Shown: piece after piece, positions 2,575 through 11,887 of the stretch
Numbering within the stretch: the stretch's first letter is position 1
Layout of the letters: each line of letters opens with the position of its first letter
Virus record (IMG/VR): IMGVR_UViG_2541047953_000003
Coordinates: 1 to 11,887 of that record
Direction: 5' to 3' (one strand)
Length of the DNA: 11,887 nt
Origin: a virus
Taxonomy: Duplodnaviria; Heunggongvirae; Uroviricota; Caudoviricetes
Position numbers and translations under genes: made by a program
Notes under the pieces: model-generated
What the model saw: only the letters and a program-made list of their open reading frames with translations
Told to the model about the DNA's origin: nothing
The model's database searches: none

Positions 2575-2649
2575 GTCCTCTTAGTTAAATGGATATAACG
2601 AGCCCCTCCTAAGGGCTAATTGCAGGTTCGATTCCTGCAGGGGACACCA
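2575..2649 (+). tRNA. argW: tRNA-Arg, anticodon CCU
   Basis: 75-nt sequence folding as a cloverleaf: acceptor stem GTCCTCT/AGGGGAC, anticodon loop CTCCTAA (anticodon CCT), T-loop GGTTCGATTCC, encoded 3' CCA. Followed directly by an integrase gene, the classic argW island arrangement. Confidence 0.93.
2620..2635 (+). repeat. 16-bp segment of argW (TTGCAGGTTCGATTCC) that recurs exactly at 11652..11667; candidate att core, attL copy
   Basis: Exact 16/16 direct repeat found by eye. Its position inside the tRNA T-arm next to a P4-type integrase is typical of a tRNA-targeting att core. Confidence 0.6.
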
Positions 2650-2739: not shown

Positions 2740-2810
2740 GATCGTTGACAGCCACACTCCATGACGGGTAAAAAGTGGATAAAATAATTTTACCCACCGG
2801 ATTTTTACCC
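2740..2810 (+). promoter_or_regulatory. Candidate intS promoter and recombinase/RDF binding region (attL arm)
   Basis: TTGACA at 2745..2750; TAAAAT at 2780..2785; inverted repeat GGGTAAAA (2765..2772) / TTTTACCC (2789..2796), with TTTTACCC repeated again at 2803..2810 abutting the ATG. GTTCG motifs recur at 2626, 2657, 2719 and 2730. Confidence 0.35.
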
Positions 2811-3968
2811 ATGCTCACCGTTAAGCAGATTGAAGCAGCAAAGCCGAAAGAAAAACCATACCGCCTACTCGATGGTAATGGTCTGTACCTTTATGTCCCT
2901 GTATCCGGAAAAAAGGTCTGGCAGCTTCGCTACAAGATTGACGGTAAGGAGAAAATCCTGACCGTAGGAAAATATCCGCTAATGACTTTGCAGGAGGCAA
3001 GGGATAAGGCATGGACTGCGAGGAAAGACATCTCGGTTGGCATCGATCCGGTAAAGGCGAAAAAGGCTTCGTCTAACAACAATTCATTTAGTGCGATTTA
3101 CAAGGAATGGTACGAGCACAAGAAGCAAGTCTGGTCAGTAGGCTATGCAACTGAACTTGCCAAAATGTTTGATGACGACATTTTACCCATCATCGGCGGT
3201 CTTGAGATTCAGGATATTGAGCCGATGCAACTGCTGGAAGTAATCCGCAGATTTGAAGATCGCGGTGCAATGGAGCGAGCCAACAAAGCCCGCAGAAGAT
3301 GCGGCGAGGTTTTCCGTTACGCTATTGTCACCGGAAGGGCTAAATATAACCCAGCACCTGACCTTGCTGACGCCATGAAGGGATACCGCAAGAAGAACTT
3401 CCCGTTTCTTCCTGCAGACCAGATCCCGGCATTCAATAAAGCACTAGCAACATTTTCAGGAAGTATCGTATCGCTCATTGCCACCAAGGTTTTACGCTAT
3501 ACAGCCCTAAGAACGAAAGAGCTTCGTTCCATGCAATGGAAGAACGTCGATTTTGAAAACAGGATTATCACCATCGACGCCAATGTGATGAAGGGACGCA
3601 AAATTCATGTGGTTCCTATGTCAGACCAGGTGGTTGAACTTCTCACTACGCTAAGCTCAATCACTAAACCAGTGTCAGAGTTTGTTTTTGCCGGACGCAA
3701 CGATAAGAAGAAGCCAATCTGCGAGAACGCGGTGCTACTTGTGATCAAACAAATCGGCTATGAGGGTCTGGAAAGCGGTCACGGATTCAGGCATGAATTC
3801 AGTACGATTATGAACGAGCACGAATGGCCTGCTGACGCTATTGAGGTGCAACTGGCACATGCCAACGGCGGATCTGTGCGTGGGATTTACAACCATGCTC
3901 AGTATCTCGATAAGCGCAGAGAAATGATGCTGTGGTGGGCGGACTGGCTGGACGAAAAGACACAGTAA
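2811..3968 (+). CDS. intS: Tyrosine recombinase, P4-type prophage integrase (IntS-like, 385 aa)
   Basis: ORF immediately downstream of argW. The C-terminal region has the tyrosine recombinase signature (HGFRHEF ... VQLAHANGG ... RGIYNHAQY). Start chosen at MLTVKQ (2811); an in-frame ATG at 2775 would add 12 residues. Confidence 0.85.
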   Translation: MLTVKQIEAAKPKEKPYRLLDGNGLYLYVPVSGKKVWQLRYKIDGKEKILTVGKYPLMTLQEARDKAWTARKDISVGIDPVKAKKASSNNNSFSAIYKEWYEHKKQVWSVGYATELAKMFDDDILPIIGGLEIQDIEPMQLLEVIRRFEDRGAMERANKARRRCGEVFRYAIVTGRAKYNPAPDLADAMKGYRKKNFPFLPADQIPAFNKALATFSGSIVSLIATKVLRYTALRTKELRSMQWKNVDFENRIITIDANVMKGRKIHVVPMSDQVVELLTTLSSITKPVSEFVFAGRNDKKKPICENAVLLVIKQIGYEGLESGHGFRHEFSTIMNEHEWPADAIEVQLAHANGGSVRGIYNHAQYLDKRREMMLWWADWLDEKTQ

Positions 3969-8255: not shown

Positions 8256-10649
8256 CTATTCTGACAACGCATCAGACTTAGCCCCCTGCATCATAGCGTT
8301 AATTGCCTTTTGTGCCTGCTGCATGGCTTTCTCAAACGCTGTTGAACCGCGTGGGGTGTTTGCCATTCGGAGCATTGCATTTCTGAATGGCTCGCTCTCA
8401 TAGGCGCGAGTAAGAAGTCCGTAGCTTACTGCTGCGCCAGTTGTCGCCGGGTTCATTGCCGTCCCATACCCAATTATGAACGGGATAGTTTGCTGCCCTG
8501 TGGGTGTTGTTACTGCCGCTTTTGCAGCCTGCTGCGTGGATTGCAGGTAGTTTTTTAATCCTTTCAGATAAGCAGCGTCCTGCCCCTTAAATGTGATGCC
8601 AGTCTGTTTTTGCAGGATGTTAAGCTGCCGAAGGAACTGGTCAGGGGATCCGCCAGATTTCTCCATCGCCTTTCCAATGATGCCATTGCGCATTTGCGCC
8701 CTGCCAACACGACCAACTGAGTTATACAGCGTCTTAATTTCCGATTTGTTCTTGCTGAATAGCATGTTGTTGACAACTTCCGGTGTCAGGTCGCCTTTCA
8801 TGAGAACATTCTTCAGCCTGGTATTCTTTAGTTTCGCCGCTTCGTCAGCGTAGACGGCATTGGCCTGCTGATATTTACGGAGAGTATCGTTGCCAAGATT
8901 CTGACCAATGGCACCATTGATATCGTCTGTCATCGCCTTGTAAACGCGCTGAATGGCAGCATCGGAACGGTTTGGCAACACTGGTCGTTCCCCCTTCACG
9001 TCCATTCTGAACTGGCTGCGCAGATCGCTTAATTGCTTCAAATCCAGATTTACCGGACCATCAGGACCAGCATTGCGAACAAGCTCATCACGATAGGACT
9101 GAAGTTTTGAAATAGTCTCGTTATCGGCGACCTTACCAAGCTTCTGCAGATTAGATATTTCTGTATCAATCTGCTGAATTGCTCGCGCAGGATGAATGTT
9201 TACTCCAGCCATAGCATTCTGAACCTGCTCCAGTCGATTACCGGCGGCACGACGAATTCCTGATGTTTTCGCTTTAAGGCTGTCAATAACAACCGCTGGA
9301 TCATACTCACCGAATTTATCGGCAAATCTCTGCACCAACTGGCTTCTCGCTTCCTGTTGCGTTGCTCTCATTCCGCTTGTGCCAGCCAGGGGGATATTTT
9401 CTGCTGTAGTCTGCGCCATTTTCCCGACGCGGGAAGTAGGCTGTAACAGGTCTGTGGTGTGCAGAGGAACTCCTTCACGCTCTGCAAACCTGATAGCCTG
9501 TTGAGCTTCTGGTGCTATCGAACCACGAACACCACGATAAGCAGCACCTAATCCACGTCCGGCAGCGTTAATAGCACCGCCAGCCAGCACACCAACGCCT
9601 AAATCGGTGGCGAGTGCTTCCGCATCATCTTTCGCACTGTTTGCAGCAAGTGATCCAACTGCGTTTTCTGCTAGAAGACGAGTTGCACCCTGAGCAATTC
9701 GACCAGCAAGTGTTGGTGCCTGTGTTGCCGCTCTCTCAACGCCAGCAGGAGTGAGGTAAGGCAATGCTTCAGCAAATACCCTTCCCTCTGTCGTTTGTGG
9801 AGTCAGCGCGCCTTGCTGAAGGCCAAAGTCCTGCTCTAATCCCTGCGTTGTTACTCGTGGTGCTGGTTGATATGTACCATCGCCAATGCCGAGTTTACCT
9901 CCAGCCCAAGCCGCCGCGCTTGTTACAGCATCAGTGAGTTCAGCAGGTATGTTCGCTACGTTGATTCCTGCCTGTAGTAAGCCGCGCCCGGTTTCAGCAA
10001 GTCCATTACCAAGGTCAGACATTATTCCGCCTTGCTGCTGAACAGGTTTCGGTGCGACAGAACTTACGGGTTGAGGTGGCTGCTGACTGGCTGCCTGCTG
10101 CTCAATCTGAGCAAATGGATTATTTGGGTCTGACTGCACGCCTGATGCCGATACTTGTTCGGATGACTGTGCTTCCAGTTGTGCAAACGGGTTGTTAGGG
10201 TCTTGCTGAGGATGTACCTTTGCAGAGGTGGCGCGCTGTTCGACTGTTGAGTCTGTCACCGGGTCACCCGCCCATTGAGCAAAGCGATCATCAACGTAAC
10301 CGCGGCCTTCAGGTCCTGGCGTATATTCACCACGCTTTGCCTTCATAACGTTGCCGGGACCGTCGTGATAAGCCTGAAGAGCGTCACGCCAGTTACCAAA
10401 CTGCTGGTACATCTTTGCCAGATAGCGCGCGCCAGCGTCAGCCTGATATTCGGGGTTTTGCATTTGCTCATCGGTATAACCCATATCACGCCATGTCCCA
10501 GGCATGACCTGAGTCAATCCTACAGCCCCGGCGGAGCTTACTGCGGCAGGGTTGTAAGAAGACTCCTTGGCACCCAGTGCAGTCATCAACCCTTCTGGCA
10601 CACCGTAACGTGCGCCAGCCTGCTCTAACAAATCACGGTAATTAGCCAT
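8256..10649 (-). CDS. Phage ejection (internal virion) protein with an N-terminal lytic transglycosylase (SLT) domain
   Basis: 797-aa ORF. The N-terminus carries family-1 lytic transglycosylase motifs (ALGAKESSYNP with catalytic Glu; AVGLTQVMPGTW; AGARYL). It is followed by a tandem peptide repeat (DPNNPFAQLE / DPNNPFAQIE) and a long Ala/Gly/Gln-rich body. Its position upstream of the immI-like region and tailspike corresponds to the last ejection gene of P22-like phages. Confidence 0.75.
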   Translation of the reverse strand: MANYRDLLEQAGARYGVPEGLMTALGAKESSYNPAAVSSAGAVGLTQVMPGTWRDMGYTDEQMQNPEYQADAGARYLAKMYQQFGNWRDALQAYHDGPGNVMKAKRGEYTPGPEGRGYVDDRFAQWAGDPVTDSTVEQRATSAKVHPQQDPNNPFAQLEAQSSEQVSASGVQSDPNNPFAQIEQQAASQQPPQPVSSVAPKPVQQQGGIMSDLGNGLAETGRGLLQAGINVANIPAELTDAVTSAAAWAGGKLGIGDGTYQPAPRVTTQGLEQDFGLQQGALTPQTTEGRVFAEALPYLTPAGVERAATQAPTLAGRIAQGATRLLAENAVGSLAANSAKDDAEALATDLGVGVLAGGAINAAGRGLGAAYRGVRGSIAPEAQQAIRFAEREGVPLHTTDLLQPTSRVGKMAQTTAENIPLAGTSGMRATQQEARSQLVQRFADKFGEYDPAVVIDSLKAKTSGIRRAAGNRLEQVQNAMAGVNIHPARAIQQIDTEISNLQKLGKVADNETISKLQSYRDELVRNAGPDGPVNLDLKQLSDLRSQFRMDVKGERPVLPNRSDAAIQRVYKAMTDDINGAIGQNLGNDTLRKYQQANAVYADEAAKLKNTRLKNVLMKGDLTPEVVNNMLFSKNKSEIKTLYNSVGRVGRAQMRNGIIGKAMEKSGGSPDQFLRQLNILQKQTGITFKGQDAAYLKGLKNYLQSTQQAAKAAVTTPTGQQTIPFIIGYGTAMNPATTGAAVSYGLLTRAYESEPFRNAMLRMANTPRGSTAFEKAMQQAQKAINAMMQGAKSDALSE

Positions 10650-10811
10650 TTACTGCCCCAAAGATGGAAGATATCCGTAGCGATTAATGAAGTCGATTGA
10701 CAGCTCGGGGTGCTGCTTCAGGTAATGGTCATGTATGAAGACGGTGAGATGTGGTCTGCAATGTGGAATGGCAATCGCTGGGATGATGGCACCGAATATC
10801 CGGATCCGCAC
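10650..10811 (-). pseudogene. Possible 3' remnant of the upstream ejection-protein gene (no start codon); marks the deletion junction
   Basis: The - strand frame ending at TAA (complement of 10650..10652), directly abutting the ATG of the 797-aa gene (TAAATG), is open for only 53 codons and contains no Met. It overlaps a + strand small ORF (10725..10868), so one of the two is not real. Confidence 0.3.
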
Positions 10812-10864
10812 TCAGTTACGCACTGGCGTGAAATGCCAGCAGCGCCGAAACAGGAGGTGAAGTC

Positions 10865-11077
10865 GTGAGCAAGCACATCATCAAATATGACTATCGAGAG
10901 GGAGTTAAACTTGCAAAGCATGAAATAGAAACGTGGTGCGGACATGCGCCACAATTTTCAGACTGGTTGTTTCAGGATGCTCAGCACGCGCTGTTGAGCA
11001 TTGAGCAGGGAACGCTGCTTGTTCCTTGCAAGAATTGTCTGGCAGCAATCATCAAAACGGCGCAGGAGGTGAAGTGA
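10865..11077 (+). CDS. Small hypothetical protein (70 aa, GTG start), possible Cys/His metal-binding motif
   Basis: Strong SD (CAGGAGGTGAAGT) 8 nt upstream of the GTG. Contains CGH ... CKNC. Its stop overlaps the start of the next gene (TGATG). Confidence 0.5.
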   Translation: MSKHIIKYDYREGVKLAKHEIETWCGHAPQFSDWLFQDAQHALLSIEQGTLLVPCKNCLAAIIKTAQEVK

Positions 11078-11361
11078 TGGACTCCTTCGCGAAATATACG
11101 ATCATTGACTGGATAGCATTCCTTCAGGTTTTGCTCATCTGGTTTTATATGGCTTACAGGAGTGGACAGTGGATTGTCAGTGTAGCCTGTAGCAAGGGAT
11201 GGCGTTGGTGGAACAGAAAGAATAAAAAAGCACTGGCATTGGATTCGTTTTACGAAGCATTCAATCTTAACAGCCTTCAGCCTGGTTCTGTCATTGTAGT
11301 CACCACTCAAAGCGGCATGACGATACAAATTCACAAGCCAAAGGAGGAAGGTCGTGGCTAA
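11077..11361 (+). CDS. Small hypothetical membrane protein (94 aa)
   Basis: Start at MDSFAKY, preceded by the same 13-nt CAGGAGGTGAAGT element. One N-terminal hydrophobic helix (IIDWIAFLQVLLIWFYMAY). The longer ORF from 11026 is less likely. Confidence 0.5.
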   Translation: MDSFAKYTIIDWIAFLQVLLIWFYMAYRSGQWIVSVACSKGWRWWNRKNKKALALDSFYEAFNLNSLQPGSVIVVTTQSGMTIQIHKPKEEGRG

Positions 11362-11423
11362 CCTGCAACTTGCCGTCAAAGGTGAATAACAATCCTCGCA
11401 TTCACTGGGATTTCTTTTATCTG

Positions 11424-11450
11424 AACTCGCTACGGCGAGTTTTGTTTTAT
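11424..11450 (+). terminator. Candidate hairpin terminator after the membrane-protein gene
   Basis: Stem AACTCGC / GCGAGTT with loop TACG, followed by TTTTGTTTTAT. Confidence 0.4.
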
Positions 11451-11461
11451 GGAGATGATAA

Positions 11462-11629
11462 ATGCACTTCCGAGTCACAGGTGAATGGAATGGAGAGCCA
11501 TTCGACAGGGTTATCGAAGCCGAGAACATCAGCGACTGCTATGACCACTGGATGCTGTGGGCGCAGATAGCACATGCAGACGTAACCAATATTCGAATTG
11601 AAGAACTGAAAGAACACCAAGCCGCCTGA
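11462..11629 (+). CDS. Small hypothetical protein (55 aa), prophage right-arm gene
   Basis: ATG preceded by GGAG with 7-nt spacing; ORF MHFRVTGEWNGEPFDRVIEAENISDCYDHWMLWAQIAHADVTNIRIEELKEHQAA, followed directly by a strong terminator. It is below the ORF-track size cutoff. It may correspond to the small ypdJ-type ORF next to torI in K-12, but I do not recognise the sequence. Confidence 0.45.
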   Translation: MHFRVTGEWNGEPFDRVIEAENISDCYDHWMLWAQIAHADVTNIRIEELKEHQAA

Positions 11630-11641
11630 TGGCGGTTTTTT
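11621..11641 (+). terminator. Rho-independent terminator
   Basis: Stem CCGCC (11622..11626) / GGCGG (11631..11635) with loop TGAT containing the stop codon, followed by TTTTTTATT. Confidence 0.75.
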
Positions 11642-11651
11642 ATTGCCTGAT

Positions 11652-11667
11652 TTGCAGGTTCGATTCC
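11652..11667 (+). repeat. Second exact copy of the 16-bp argW segment TTGCAGGTTCGATTCC; candidate att core (attR or internal junction)
   Basis: 16/16 identity with 2620..2635. It lies between a terminator and the RBS of the excisionase gene. The sequence downstream of the repeat is not tRNA-like. Confidence 0.55.
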
Positions 11668-11686
11668 CTATTCGGAGATAGCACTC

Positions 11687-11887
11687 ATGCAACACGAACT
11701 ACAGCCTGATTCACTGGTTGATTTGAAATTCATCATGGCCGATACTGGCTTCGGTAAAACCTTCATCTACGACCGGATTAAGTCCGGCGACCTGCCAAAA
11801 GCCAAAGTTATCCACGGGCGAGCAAGATGGTTATATCGTGACCATTGTGAATTCAAAAATAAGCTCTTAAGCCGCGCCAATGGGTAA
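11687..11887 (+). CDS. torI: Excisionase / recombination directionality factor (Xis/AlpA winged-helix family), TorI-like
   Basis: 66-aa ORF with the AlpA/Xis-type pattern (FIMADTGFGKTFIYDRIKSGDLPKAKVIHGRARWLYRD); RBS GGAG 9 nt upstream. Size and position at the far end of an argW prophage from intS match KplE1 TorI as I recall it. Confidence 0.65.
   Translation: MQHELQPDSLVDLKFIMADTGFGKTFIYDRIKSGDLPKAKVIHGRARWLYRDHCEFKNKLLSRANG

What the first reader, a model, noticed from the sequence alone, without database searches (positions are those of the whole stretch)
10701..11361. Reiterated 13-nt junction element CAGGAGGTGAAGT that couples consecutive small genes
The same 13-mer occurs at 10851..10863 and 11063..11075. 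Each time it encodes the C-terminal residues (QEVK) of one ORF while serving as the Shine-Dalgarno for the next, whose start codon overlaps the upstream stop (GTGA and TGATG). A possible third ORF (10725..10868, 47 aa, ending QEVKS) would make it a chain of three. This looks like a recombination-prone modular junction or a tight stoichiometric coupling device for small proteins of unknown function, one of them membrane-anchored.
Basis: seen in the sequence. Interest (0 to 1): 0.4.

Follow-up and report, generated by a model that had tools for sequence, protein, structure and literature searches.

The report
Shared gene-junction linker in prophage remnant
The repeated 13-base element is real: it is a short junction sequence (end of one small gene, ribosome-binding site and start of the next) that many E. 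coli and Salmonella temperate phages reuse between unrelated accessory genes, apparently letting those genes be swapped in and out like cassettes, which is a clear example of a known idea, not a new mechanism.

Summary
Observation confirmed. CAGGAGGTGAAGT occurs exactly twice (10851, 11063), each time as the last codons (QEVK) of one ORF, a 9-nt perfect Shine-Dalgarno and a stop/start overlap (GTGA, TGATG). A repeated 13-mer alone is not significant in 11.9 kb. The shared position and register, and the comparative data, make it real.

The window is a decayed P22-like prophage at argW (like K-12 CPS-53/KplE1). The element lies in the exo-xis ("ea") accessory region upstream of torI. The proposed third ORF is the 3' stump of a DUF551 gene cut by an internal prophage deletion. 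The 70-aa and DUF4752 genes are intact and under purifying selection.

Across viral contigs the same junction joins about 34 upstream and 61 downstream gene families. Chains of three junctions exist. Cassettes are present or absent with end-points inside the 13-mer, and two cassettes occur in both orders.

Best reading: a portable expression adaptor that also serves as a short-homology crossover point, that is, a "boundary/linker" sequence of lambdoid phages. A specific stoichiometric pairing of the two proteins is not supported, because partners vary. Recombination at the motif is inferred, not shown. Interest is modest.

The parts
10851..10863 (+). Junction linker copy 1 (CAGGAGGTGAAGT). It encodes QEVK(S) of the DUF551 remnant, contains the SD AGGAGGTGA, and is followed by cGTGa, where the stop and the GTG start overlap.
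   Evidence: The same junction subtype (..AAGTCGTGAGCAAG) precedes the 70-aa gene in 20 unique contexts.
11063..11075 (+). Junction linker copy 2 (CAGGAGGTGAAGT). It encodes QEVK of the 70-aa gene, contains the SD, and is followed by the TGATG overlap with the DUF4752 start.
   Evidence: CAGGAGGTGAAGTGATG is the commonest junction form (110 of 206 unique junctions).
10721..10868 (+). 3' remnant (about 47 codons) of a DUF551-domain gene.
   Evidence: Pfam DUF551 E=3e-10, matching profile positions 26-68 only. The intact 165-aa gene is in GF4. Homology to it starts at the GGTAAT joint.
10650..10726 (-). 3' end remnant of the phage DNA-ejection protein gene. Its end at 10721-10726 is the internal deletion joint that removed most of the prophage, including pL and the proximal early-left operon.
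10865..11077 (+). Intact 70-aa gene of unknown function (phrog_4090, WP_021575275). Together with one linker copy it forms a 212-bp cassette.
   Evidence: dN/dS 0.105. Absent with exact 13-mer end-points in L147.
11077..11361 (+). Intact 94-aa DUF4752 gene (phrog_667), with an N-terminal hydrophobic helix at residues 8-26.
   Evidence: Pfam E=2.7e-36. dN/dS 0.157. Hydropathy.
11341..11361 (+). Diverged fourth junction AAGGAGGAAGGTCGTGGCTAA: AGGAGG, then GTG 11354 overlapping the DUF4752 stop.
   Evidence: In HF4s and about 60 of 80 loci this GTG starts an ASCH-domain gene.
11354..11389 (+). Stump of the ASCH-domain gene (11 codons plus stop). The rest of the gene is absent here.
   Evidence: Alignment with HF4s. 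The same deleted allele is in L137.
11423..11450 (+). Terminator-like hairpin plus T-run that closes this gene run (context only).

Best explanation
The 13-mer is the core of a conserved junction ('linker') used between accessory-gene cassettes at the distal end of the exo-xis (ea) region of the early-left operon of lambdoid and P22-like enterobacterial phages.

One short sequence does three jobs. It supplies the last four codons of whatever ORF lies upstream (..QEVK). It is a 9-nt perfect Shine-Dalgarno. It places the upstream stop on top of, or within a few bases of, the downstream start (TGATG, GTGA). Any promoterless small gene placed behind it is therefore translated, by reinitiation and/or direct initiation.

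Because the same nucleotides sit at many junctions, within one phage and between phages, they also provide a patch of identity. That patch is 13-17 nt, and up to about 30-45 nt when the upstream gene ends in a DUF551 domain. Phage annealing recombinases (Red-beta, Erf, RecT) or replication slippage can cross over there. This inserts, deletes or re-pairs cassettes without breaking reading frames or expression.

In this window the element is a relic. The prophage has lost pL and most of the operon, the first gene of the chain is a stump, and no promoter-like site precedes the genes.

Shown: the anatomy, the distribution, and cassette polymorphisms with end-points in the motif. Inferred: translational coupling and actual crossover at the motif.
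For: Context. The window runs argW - intS - tailspike - SLT ejection protein - [deletion] - DUF551 stump - 70 aa - DUF4752 - torI. The homologous stretch in GF4, HF4s and mEp213 lies between the recombination genes (erf/abc2) and xis.

Anatomy. The stop/start overlaps and the 7-nt SD spacing are read directly from the sequence. In E. coli, removing the intragenic SD reduced reinitiation in 4 of 5 overlapping pairs tested (PMC6728339).

Sharing across unrelated flanks.
- There are 206 unique junctions. Upstream gene bodies fall into 34 families: DUF551 fusions, the 70-aa gene, a 61-aa gene, Lar-like, HNH and others. Downstream genes fall into 61 families: DUF4752, the 70-aa gene, Rv2179c-like exoribonuclease, NinX-like, ASCH and others. 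Together they make 71 family pairings.
- Loci found through the proteins, and so not selected on the motif, carry it too. All 51 distinct contexts upstream of DUF4752 have it or a close variant, as do both ends of close 70-aa homologues.
- The motif follows both partners. DUF551 genes end with it whatever gene follows, and DUF4752 and the 70-aa gene start behind it whatever gene precedes.

Cassette behaviour.
- The same DUF551 allele as in the window is followed by the 70-aa gene, by DUF4752 directly, or by a third gene.
- L147 lacks exactly the 212-bp unit between the two 13-mers, and L005 has an extra 185-bp 61-aa unit bounded by a third copy.
- Homology of L141, L216 and HF4s to the window begins 2 nt before linker 1.
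- 14 loci carry three consecutive copies.
- The 38-aa and 70-aa cassettes occur in both orders.

Specificity. In the whole mEp213 genome the motif occurs only at three consecutive junctions. Other early-left junctions use different SDs, so this is more than generic SD convergence.

Nucleotide versus peptide. The Pfam DUF551 model ends just before QEVK. Non-synonymous variants exist (QEMK, QEVN, QEAK, QVVK, QELK) while CAGGAG stays invariant. A 38-aa cassette reads the same nucleotides in another frame, TGC AGG AGG TGA = CRR*.

Precedent.
- Short conserved boundary sequences were proposed as recombination foci in lambdoid phages (Clark 2001 and Susskind & Botstein 1978, as cited in PMC3029335).
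- Rad52-like phage recombinases act on short or diverged homology (PMC3945230).
- PeSL motifs mediate analogous shuffling in T4-type phages (PMC2839356).
Against: - 13-17 nt is below the minimal efficient pairing segment quoted for Red-beta (23-27 bp) and RecA (31-34 bp) (PMC3945230). Crossovers in the core alone would be rare.
- No recombination was observed. Illegitimate joints filtered by selection, followed by inheritance of the junction with either neighbour, could mimic much of the pattern.
- Allelic differences between close relatives do not switch at the linkers. The 70-aa alleles differ by an internal 82-nt patch (10912-10993) with identical flanks.
- No tandem cassette duplications, the reciprocal product of unequal crossover, were found.
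- Among close relatives the motif is no better conserved than neighbouring coding sequence: majority-base frequency is 80-100% in the motif, against 95-99% in the DUF4752 CDS.
- Partner diversity at the non-canonical DUF4752 3' junction is not clearly lower than at the linker.
- No significant RNA structure enforces coupling, so with a 9-nt SD direct initiation may dominate.
- In this window there is no promoter-like site upstream, so the element may be silent here.
Confidence: 0.6

Rival explanations
1. Expression signal only. The motif is a very strong SD plus stop/start overlap that is inherited with its neighbouring genes. Cassette reshuffling happens by illegitimate or other recombination and selection keeps joints at gene boundaries. 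The motif has no special role as a crossover site.
For: - The core is shorter than the recombinase pairing minima (PMC3945230).
- Most mosaic boundaries in phages lack conserved sequences (PMC3029335).
- Distant 70-aa homologues keep the style of junction (purine-rich SD + ..AAGTGATG) with diverged sequence, as expected for a functional signal drifting by descent.
- Gene-conversion tracts end inside genes, not at linkers.
- No reciprocal duplications were found.
Against: - Random joints would not be expected to place the identical 13-17-mer between 71 different family pairings, nor make it follow both the upstream and the downstream partner.
- Other junctions of the same operon use different SDs.
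- Indel end-points fall exactly in the repeat.
- Cassette order is permuted.
Confidence: 0.28
2. Peptide tail. The conserved feature is the C-terminal peptide ..(A/P)PQQEVK, for example a shared interaction, stability or degradation tag on exo-xis proteins, and the nucleotide identity is a by-product.
For: - The tail is found on many unrelated proteins, often with a longer shared ..AAPQQEVK.
- In K-12, YfdT ends QQEVK* although the nucleotides have changed synonymously to CAAGAGGTGAAATAA.
- Synonymous variants (GTA, GTT, AAA) are common.
Against: - Non-synonymous variants and extensions are tolerated: QEMK, QEVN, QEAK, QVVK, QELK, QGVR, and QEVKS/P/LV.
- The Pfam DUF551 model stops before the tail.
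- The 38-aa cassette carries the same nucleotides in a different frame (CRR*).
- The invariant part is CAGGAG, the SD core.
Confidence: 0.08
3. Coincidence. Two strong ribosome-binding sites happen to share 13 bases.
For: - A repeated 13-mer occurs in 66% of simulated windows.
- 9 of the 13 bases are dictated by perfect anti-SD complementarity.
- Some hits in unrelated environmental contigs are clearly chance. A 17-mer with two degenerate positions is expected by chance in a collection of that size.
Against: - The copies sit in the same register at adjacent junctions.
- The remaining 4 bases are also identical.
- The junction recurs with extended flanking conservation in hundreds of related loci and 153 phage records.
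Confidence: 0.02
4. Stoichiometric coupling of a specific protein pair: the 70-aa and DUF4752 proteins form a complex and are coupled to be made 1:1.
For: - A tight overlap with a strong SD is seen at the junction.
- Overlapping pairs often encode subunits of complexes (title of PMC10666635).
Against: - DUF4752 follows a DUF551 gene in 66 of 78 loci and the 70-aa gene in only 6.
- The 70-aa gene is followed by at least 5 other families.
Confidence: 0.05

Closest known systems
'Boundary sequences' / linker homologies of lambdoid phages (Susskind & Botstein 1978 modular theory; Clark, Inwood, Cloutier & Dhillon 2001, HK620 genome)
   Same: A short sequence conserved among lambdoid and P22-like phages whose flanks are unrelated. 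It lies at borders of exchangeable units and is proposed to be a focus for homologous recombination that assorts the units (as summarised in PMC3029335).
   Different: From my recollection of the abstract, Clark et al. described seven sequences that roughly delimit functional modules. Here the unit is a single small gene, the linker is reiterated up to three or four times in a row, and it is at once coding tail, SD and stop/start overlap. I could not read the paper to see whether this motif is among the seven. No open-access paper contains the 13-mer.
Translationally coupled overlapping gene pairs (ATGA/TGATG, termination-reinitiation; Huber et al. 2019, PMC6728339)
   Same: A -1 or -4 nt stop/start overlap with an SD inside the 3' end of the upstream ORF.
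   Different: Ordinary coupled pairs each have their own sequence and usually a fixed partner. Here one identical sequence serves many interchangeable partners.
PeSL regulatory cassettes of T4-type phages (Arbiol et al. 2010, PMC2839356; PMC4122927)
   Same: Works alike: a small conserved expression signal is reiterated between non-essential ORFs in a hyperplastic region, and recombination between copies inserts, deletes or replaces genes.
   Different: PeSLs are promoter plus terminator stem-loops acting on transcription. This element is a translational signal of 13-17 nt with no promoter or hairpin. Mini-circles were not looked for.
Integron gene cassettes (attC)
   Same: An array of promoterless cassettes, each carrying one copy of a boundary element at its 3' end.
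   Different: There is no attC-like imperfect inverted repeat and no integron integrase or attI. Exchange would depend on general or phage homologous recombination.
E. coli K-12 cryptic prophage CPS-53/KplE1 (yfdQRST-torI)
   Same: Same chromosomal site (argW..dsdC), the same torI, and a DUF551 gene (yfdS) upstream. YfdT ends ..QQEVK* (PMC4776307).
   Different: K-12 carries different cassettes and a decayed motif (CAAGAGGTGAAATAA). The window has the 70-aa and DUF4752 cassettes and a different internal deletion.

Membership tests
Translationally coupled overlapping gene pair | Co-directional ORFs whose stop and start codons overlap by 1 or 4 nt | tested here: met
   GTGA at 10865-10868 and TGATG at 11075-11079
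Translationally coupled overlapping gene pair | Shine-Dalgarno motif inside the 3' end of the upstream ORF at functional spacing | tested here: met
   AGGAGGTGA at both junctions, with GGAGG ending 7 nt before the start
Translationally coupled overlapping gene pair | Downstream translation depends on translation of the upstream ORF | not testable with these tools
   Needs reporter fusions with premature stops. There is no significant local RNA structure that would enforce dependence (z = -0.76, +0.33).
Lambdoid boundary/linker sequence | Short sequence conserved between phages whose flanking sequences on both sides are non-homologous | tested here: met
   34 upstream x 61 downstream families, 71 pairings. 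Found in siphovirus mEp213 and podovirus HF4s and in 153 phage records.
Lambdoid boundary/linker sequence | Located at end-points of insertion, deletion or replacement differences between genomes | tested here: met
   212-bp and 185-bp cassettes present or absent with end-points in the 13-mer. Homology to the window starts at 10849. Cassette order is permuted.
Lambdoid boundary/linker sequence | Elevated recombination at the sequence | not testable with these tools
   Needs genetic crosses. Indirect tests were mixed: allelic conversion tracts end inside genes and no duplications were found.
Lambdoid boundary/linker sequence | Identity with one of the boundary sequences listed by Clark et al. 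2001 | not tested
   The paper is not held.
Integron attC cassette | Imperfect inverted repeats able to fold as a hairpin recombination site | tested here: not met
   The 13-mer is not palindromic, and folds of 100-nt stretches around both copies are not more stable than shuffles.
Integron attC cassette | Associated IntI integrase and attI/Pc platform | tested here: not met
   The only integrase is the argW-specific prophage integrase intS at 2775-3968, at the far end of the prophage. Cassettes lie in the pL operon in intact relatives.
PeSL-type regulatory cassette | Sigma-70 promoter plus terminator stem-loop between ORFs | tested here: not met
   No promoter-like site in 10500-11887. Terminator-like sites occur only downstream, at 11423 and 11619.
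Pfam DUF551 / DUF4752 proteins (flanking genes) | Score above the Pfam gathering threshold | tested here: met
   DUF551 41.2 bits (cutoff 22), partial: profile positions 26-68 only. DUF4752 123.9 bits (cutoff 27), full length.

The most novel reading that the evidence does not exclude
The exo-xis region of lambdoid and P22-like phages is organised as a linker-bounded cassette array. At least two reiterated junction classes are present: QEVK*-type CAGGAGGTGAAGTGATG and IKGE*-type AAAGGAGAGTGAtATG. Each carries stop, SD and start. They would act as portable expression adaptors and as preferred crossover points for phage annealing recombinases. This would be an integrase-free, translation-level analogue of integron cassettes or T4 PeSLs, and would explain why this region is the most gene-fluid part of these genomes.
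Probability: 0.35. Interest if true: 0.55.

Novelty: new member of a known kind. Interest (0 to 1): 0.35.

Why it matters
The modular theory of phage evolution predicted short linker homologies at module borders. Such sequences are generally said to be absent from most mosaic joints (PMC3029335).

This junction is a clean, abundant and easily testable example at single-gene resolution. One 13-17-nt sequence guarantees translation of whatever follows it and marks the end-points of cassette gain, loss and re-pairing in the exo-xis region. That region influences the lysis-lysogeny decision in lambda and Stx phages (PMC10834534).

It gives a concrete substrate for asking how short a homology Red-, Erf- or RecT-type recombinases use in nature. 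It also gives a practical hint for annotation, since tiny ORFs after the motif are probably real, and for engineering insertion sites in temperate phages.

For this particular window it matters little. The copy sits in a decaying prophage without its operon promoter.

Tried and rejected
1. RNA structure at the junctions. There is no fold more stable than shuffles. A small hairpin pairs the AGGAG of linker 2 with the CUCCU of DUF4752 codons 3-4, but it is not significant and several natural variants break it. Not pursued.

2. Allelic breakpoints. I tested whether identity between close relatives switches at the linkers. The apparent switch (70-aa gene 88% versus neighbours 96-99%) comes from an internal 82-nt divergent patch, not from breakpoints at the linkers. 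This does not support the crossover idea.

3. Tandem duplications of cassettes, the reciprocal products of unequal crossover. None found.

4. Partner diversity at the linker versus the non-canonical DUF4752 3' junction. Inconclusive.

5. Conservation of the motif versus synonymous sites among close relatives. Uninformative, because everything is more than 80% conserved.

6. Species-representative genomes scanned for the 23-nt extended junction. Only one hit, Citrobacter werkmanii, so the breadth estimate relies on the phage and viral-contig collections.

7. Literature. No open-access paper contains the 13-mer, the 16-mer extension or the QQEVK/PQEVK tail in a phage context. Clark et al. 2001 is not held.

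8. The 16-mer repeat at 2620/11652 considered as attL/attR. Rejected as the functional pair, because in K-12 the argW-derived core lies downstream of torI.

9. Frameshift fusion of the ORFs. No slippery site is present, and the ORFs are separately conserved. Rejected.

10. Function of the 70-aa, DUF4752, 55-aa and 61-aa proteins. Only families of unknown function matched in Pfam and PHROGs. Structure prediction was not run, since it would not bear on the junction.
Full report
OBSERVATION

The 13-mer CAGGAGGTGAAGT is present exactly twice, at 10851-10863 and 11063-11075 on the + strand, with no further copy within two mismatches on either strand.

- At copy 1 the frame reads CAG GAG GTG AAG TCG TGA. 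The next ORF starts at GTG 10865, inside GTGA.
- At copy 2 the frame reads CAG GAG GTG AAG TGA. The next ORF starts at ATG 11077, inside TGATG.
- In both, AGGAGGTGA is a 9-nt perfect complement of the 16S rRNA 3' end (established knowledge), and GGAGG ends 7 nt before the start.
- These are the only AGGAGGT sites in the window.

A repeated 13-mer by itself is not significant in 11.9 kb. Markov simulations average 1.5 identical 13-mer pairs, and 66% have at least one. The identical register at two adjacent gene junctions, plus the comparative data below, shows the repeat is real.

WHERE IT IS

The window is E. coli chromosome around argW. In order it holds:
- mlaA and yfdC
- tRNA-Arg(CCT) at 2575-2649
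- intS
- a tailspike gene (- strand)
- a 797-aa SLT-domain ejection protein (- strand)
- the small + strand genes of the finding
- torI (xis)

It is a P22-like (Lederbergvirus-type) prophage remnant at the site of K-12's CPS-53/KplE1.

An internal deletion joins the last ~25 codons of the DNA-ejection-protein gene (- strand) to the last ~47 codons of a DUF551 gene (+ strand), at the microhomology GGTAAT at 10721-10726. The deletion removed pL, N, the recombination genes and most of the exo-xis ('ea') region. The gene is 165 aa and intact in strain GF4, whose prophage is 99.9% identical over this stretch.

The next two genes are intact:
- A 70-aa protein (phrog_4090, no Pfam family).
- A 94-aa DUF4752 protein with an N-terminal hydrophobic helix.

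Both are annotated as separate CDSs in RefSeq genomes and phages and evolve under purifying selection (median dN/dS 0.105 and 0.157). They are therefore not frameshifted pieces of one gene.

A fourth, diverged junction follows at 11341-11361 (AAGGAGGAAGGTCGTGGCTAA). Its GTG at 11354 is the start of an ASCH-domain gene in HF4s and most relatives. Here only 11 codons remain.

No promoter-like site precedes the genes. Terminator-like hairpins follow at 11423 and 11619.

WHAT THE ELEMENT IS

Motif-based scan. Most share further upstream conservation that was not part of the pattern, such as ..CACTGGATGCCGCTACCGGAACCGCCG or ..GCCAGCAGCACCGCAG, encoding ..HWMPLPEPP/AAPQ before QEVK. A minority from unrelated environmental contigs are plain chance hits.

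Protein-based loci. Loci retrieved through the proteins, and so not selected on the motif, give the same picture.
- All 51 distinct contexts upstream of DUF4752 carry the motif or a close variant.
- Close homologues of the 70-aa gene carry it at both ends.
- Distant homologues keep only the style (purine-rich SD + ..AAGTGATG), and the most distant lack it.

Family counts. Pooling all junctions within 2 mismatches gave 206 unique junctions.
- 110 are exactly CAGGAGGTGAAGTGATG and 20 are CAGGAGGTGAAGTCGTG.
- After removing the last 12 residues, upstream proteins fall into 34 families. The dominant one is DUF551 C-terminal-domain proteins of 41-391 aa with varied N-termini. Others are the 70-aa protein, a 61-aa protein, a Lar-like protein, an HNH endonuclease and several unassigned families whose tails end in ..AAAPQEVK.
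- Downstream proteins fall into 61 families, including DUF4752, the 70-aa and 61-aa proteins, an Rv2179c-like exoribonuclease, a NinX-like protein, ASCH and several tiny hydrophobic ORFs.
- Together these make 71 family pairings.

Specificity and spread.
- In the complete genome of the siphovirus mEp213 the motif occurs only at three consecutive junctions (gp32 to gp31 to gp30 to gp29). Other junctions of the same operon use different SDs.
- A 34-nt extended junction matches 153 phage records, including Escherichia, Salmonella, Stx-converting, Klebsiella and Enterobacter phages.

CASSETTE BEHAVIOUR

- The very DUF551 allele of the window is followed in other loci by the 70-aa gene, by DUF4752 directly, or by a third gene.
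- L147 lacks precisely the 212 bp between the two 13-mers. L005 and 13 other loci have three copies in a row (DUF551, then a 61- or 38-aa gene, then the 70-aa gene, then DUF4752), with the extra 185-bp unit bounded by the third copy.
- Homology of L141, L216 and HF4s to the window starts 2 nt before linker 1.
- The window's junction 1 has a DUF551-type left flank and the ..TCGTGAGCAAG right flank that normally follows the 61-aa gene. This is as expected if the 61-aa unit was lost by exchange within the 13-mer.
- The 38-aa and 70-aa units occur in both orders (L148 versus L221).
- DUF4752 is preceded by a DUF551 gene in 66 of 78 loci and by the 70-aa gene in only 6. The 70-aa gene has at least six different downstream partners. 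The two proteins are therefore not an obligate pair.

NUCLEOTIDE OR PEPTIDE

- The Pfam DUF551 model ends just before QEVK.
- Variants include non-synonymous QEMK, QEVN, QEAK, QVVK, QELK and QGVR, and extensions S, P and LV, while CAGGAG stays invariant or nearly so (98-100%; rare exceptions, e.g. CAGGTG in mEp213).
- A 38-aa cassette reads the same nucleotides in another frame (TGC AGG AGG TGA = CRR*).
- This favours a nucleotide-level signal.
- K-12 YfdT keeps QQEVK* through two synonymous changes that weaken the SD, so a minor peptide constraint cannot be excluded.

MECHANISM

Shown: the anatomy of an SD plus stop/start overlap, reuse of one sequence between unrelated genes, and cassette polymorphisms bounded by it.

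Inferred, step 1. The element drives translation of the downstream ORF by reinitiation and/or direct initiation. In E. coli, removal of the intragenic SD lowered reinitiation in 4 of 5 overlapping pairs (PMC6728339). No local structure enforces strict coupling here.

Inferred, step 2. The identity serves as a crossover point for phage annealing recombinases or for slippage. The intact relatives encode Erf and Abc2 close by, and Rad52-like phage recombinases favour short or diverged homology (PMC3945230).

Evidence against step 2:
- The 13-17-nt core is below the quoted pairing minima: 23-27 bp for Red-beta and 31-34 bp for RecA.
- Allelic conversion tracts end inside the 70-aa gene and not at the linkers.
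- No tandem duplications were seen.
- Partner diversity at a non-linker junction is not clearly lower.

I put 0.6 on the combined explanation: roughly 0.85 on the translational role and roughly 0.5-0.55 on a real crossover role.

COMPARISON WITH WHAT IS KNOWN

- It fits the 'boundary/linker sequence' concept of lambdoid phage evolution (Susskind & Botstein 1978; Clark et al. 2001, cited in PMC3029335). It also has the ordinary anatomy of translationally coupled overlapping genes.
- Functionally it resembles the PeSL cassettes of T4-type phages (PMC2839356), but at the level of translation.
- It is not attC-like: there are no inverted repeats and no integron integrase.
- I could not read Clark et al., and no open paper holds the motif. 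Whether this exact sequence has been described is therefore unresolved.

An unbiased search for 12-mers shared between different flanks in the protein-derived loci turned up two further elements. One is a second junction class..ATTCGCATCAAAGGAGAGTGAtATG (IKGE*), in 40 contexts. The other is a third shared element..GCCGCGCCGCCATGCTTCAGG.., which appears to be a conserved coding segment (my reading; no family was assigned to it). This suggests that reiterated junctions are a general feature of this region.

VERDICT

The 'modular junction' interpretation is supported by comparative evidence, and the 'stoichiometric device' interpretation is not. This is a good, abundant example of a known kind of feature, sitting here in a decaying prophage. 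Interest 0.35. Novelty: new member of a known kind.

Noticed in passing
window 2620-2635 and 11652-11667: The 16-mer TTGCAGGTTCGATTCC (T-arm of argW) recurs 19 nt upstream of the torI start codon. It does the same in K-12 CPS-53 and in the free phage HF4s. The true argW-derived core (CTGCAGGGGACACCAT) lies downstream of torI. The phage therefore carries the two contiguous parts of the argW 3' end split around its xis gene. The CUS-3 GenBank record labels the 16-mer 'attR core'.
   Followed up: partly
window 10650-10730: Internal prophage deletion joint at the 6-nt microhomology GGTAAT (10721-10726). It fuses the 3' end of the DNA-ejection-protein gene (- strand) to the 3' third of a DUF551 gene (+ strand), and it removed pL and the whole early and late regions in between.
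   Followed up: yes
window 11354-11389: Only 11 codons of an ASCH-domain gene remain. HF4s and about 60 of 80 related loci have the full ~285-nt gene overlapping the DUF4752 stop. The same deleted allele occurs in viral contig L137.
   Followed up: yes
L001 ~3630-3657 and 39 other contexts in L123-L251: A second reiterated junction class is found in the same exo-xis regions (not in the window)..GGCATTCGCATC AAAGGAGAGTGA tATG, encoding ..IRIKGE*. It is shared between many different flanks, for example immediately upstream of the intact DUF551 gene in GF4.
   Followed up: partly
L148 2668-2784 (also L214, L215); L221 2987-3330: A 38-aa hydrophobic ORF ends TGC AGG AGG TGA. It reads the junction motif in a different frame (CRR*). 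This cassette and the 70-aa cassette occur in both relative orders in different phages.
   Followed up: yes
window 10912-10993: Alleles of the 70-aa gene differ by a dense internal patch (23 mismatches in 82 nt) with identical sequence on both sides. It looks like a gene-conversion tract inside the gene.
   Followed up: partly
L254 (K-12 NC_000913.3 2475873-2476178, yfdT): K-12 YfdT ends ..MSQQEVK* with a decayed motif, CAAGAGGTGAAATAA. Both differences from the canonical motif are synonymous, and no gene follows directly.
   Followed up: no
L233 (upstream ORF of the junction): A NUMOD4/HNH_3 homing-endonuclease-like ORF ends with the DUF551-type tail ..SHLPLPAAPQQEVKP. This suggests insertion of a homing endonuclease gene into the 3' part of a DUF551 gene. 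Such an enzyme could drive co-conversion near the linker.
   Followed up: no
window 11462-11629: A 55-aa ORF (phrog_676, annotated elsewhere as similar to lambda p35) is bracketed by two terminator-like hairpins (11423-11450 and 11619-11646) between the cassette run and torI.
   Followed up: no
window 11060-11095: Local hairpin in which GCGCAGGAG of linker 2 pairs with CUCCUUCGC of DUF4752 codons 3-5, leaving the start codon in the loop. It is not more stable than shuffles, and some natural variants break it.
   Followed up: partly
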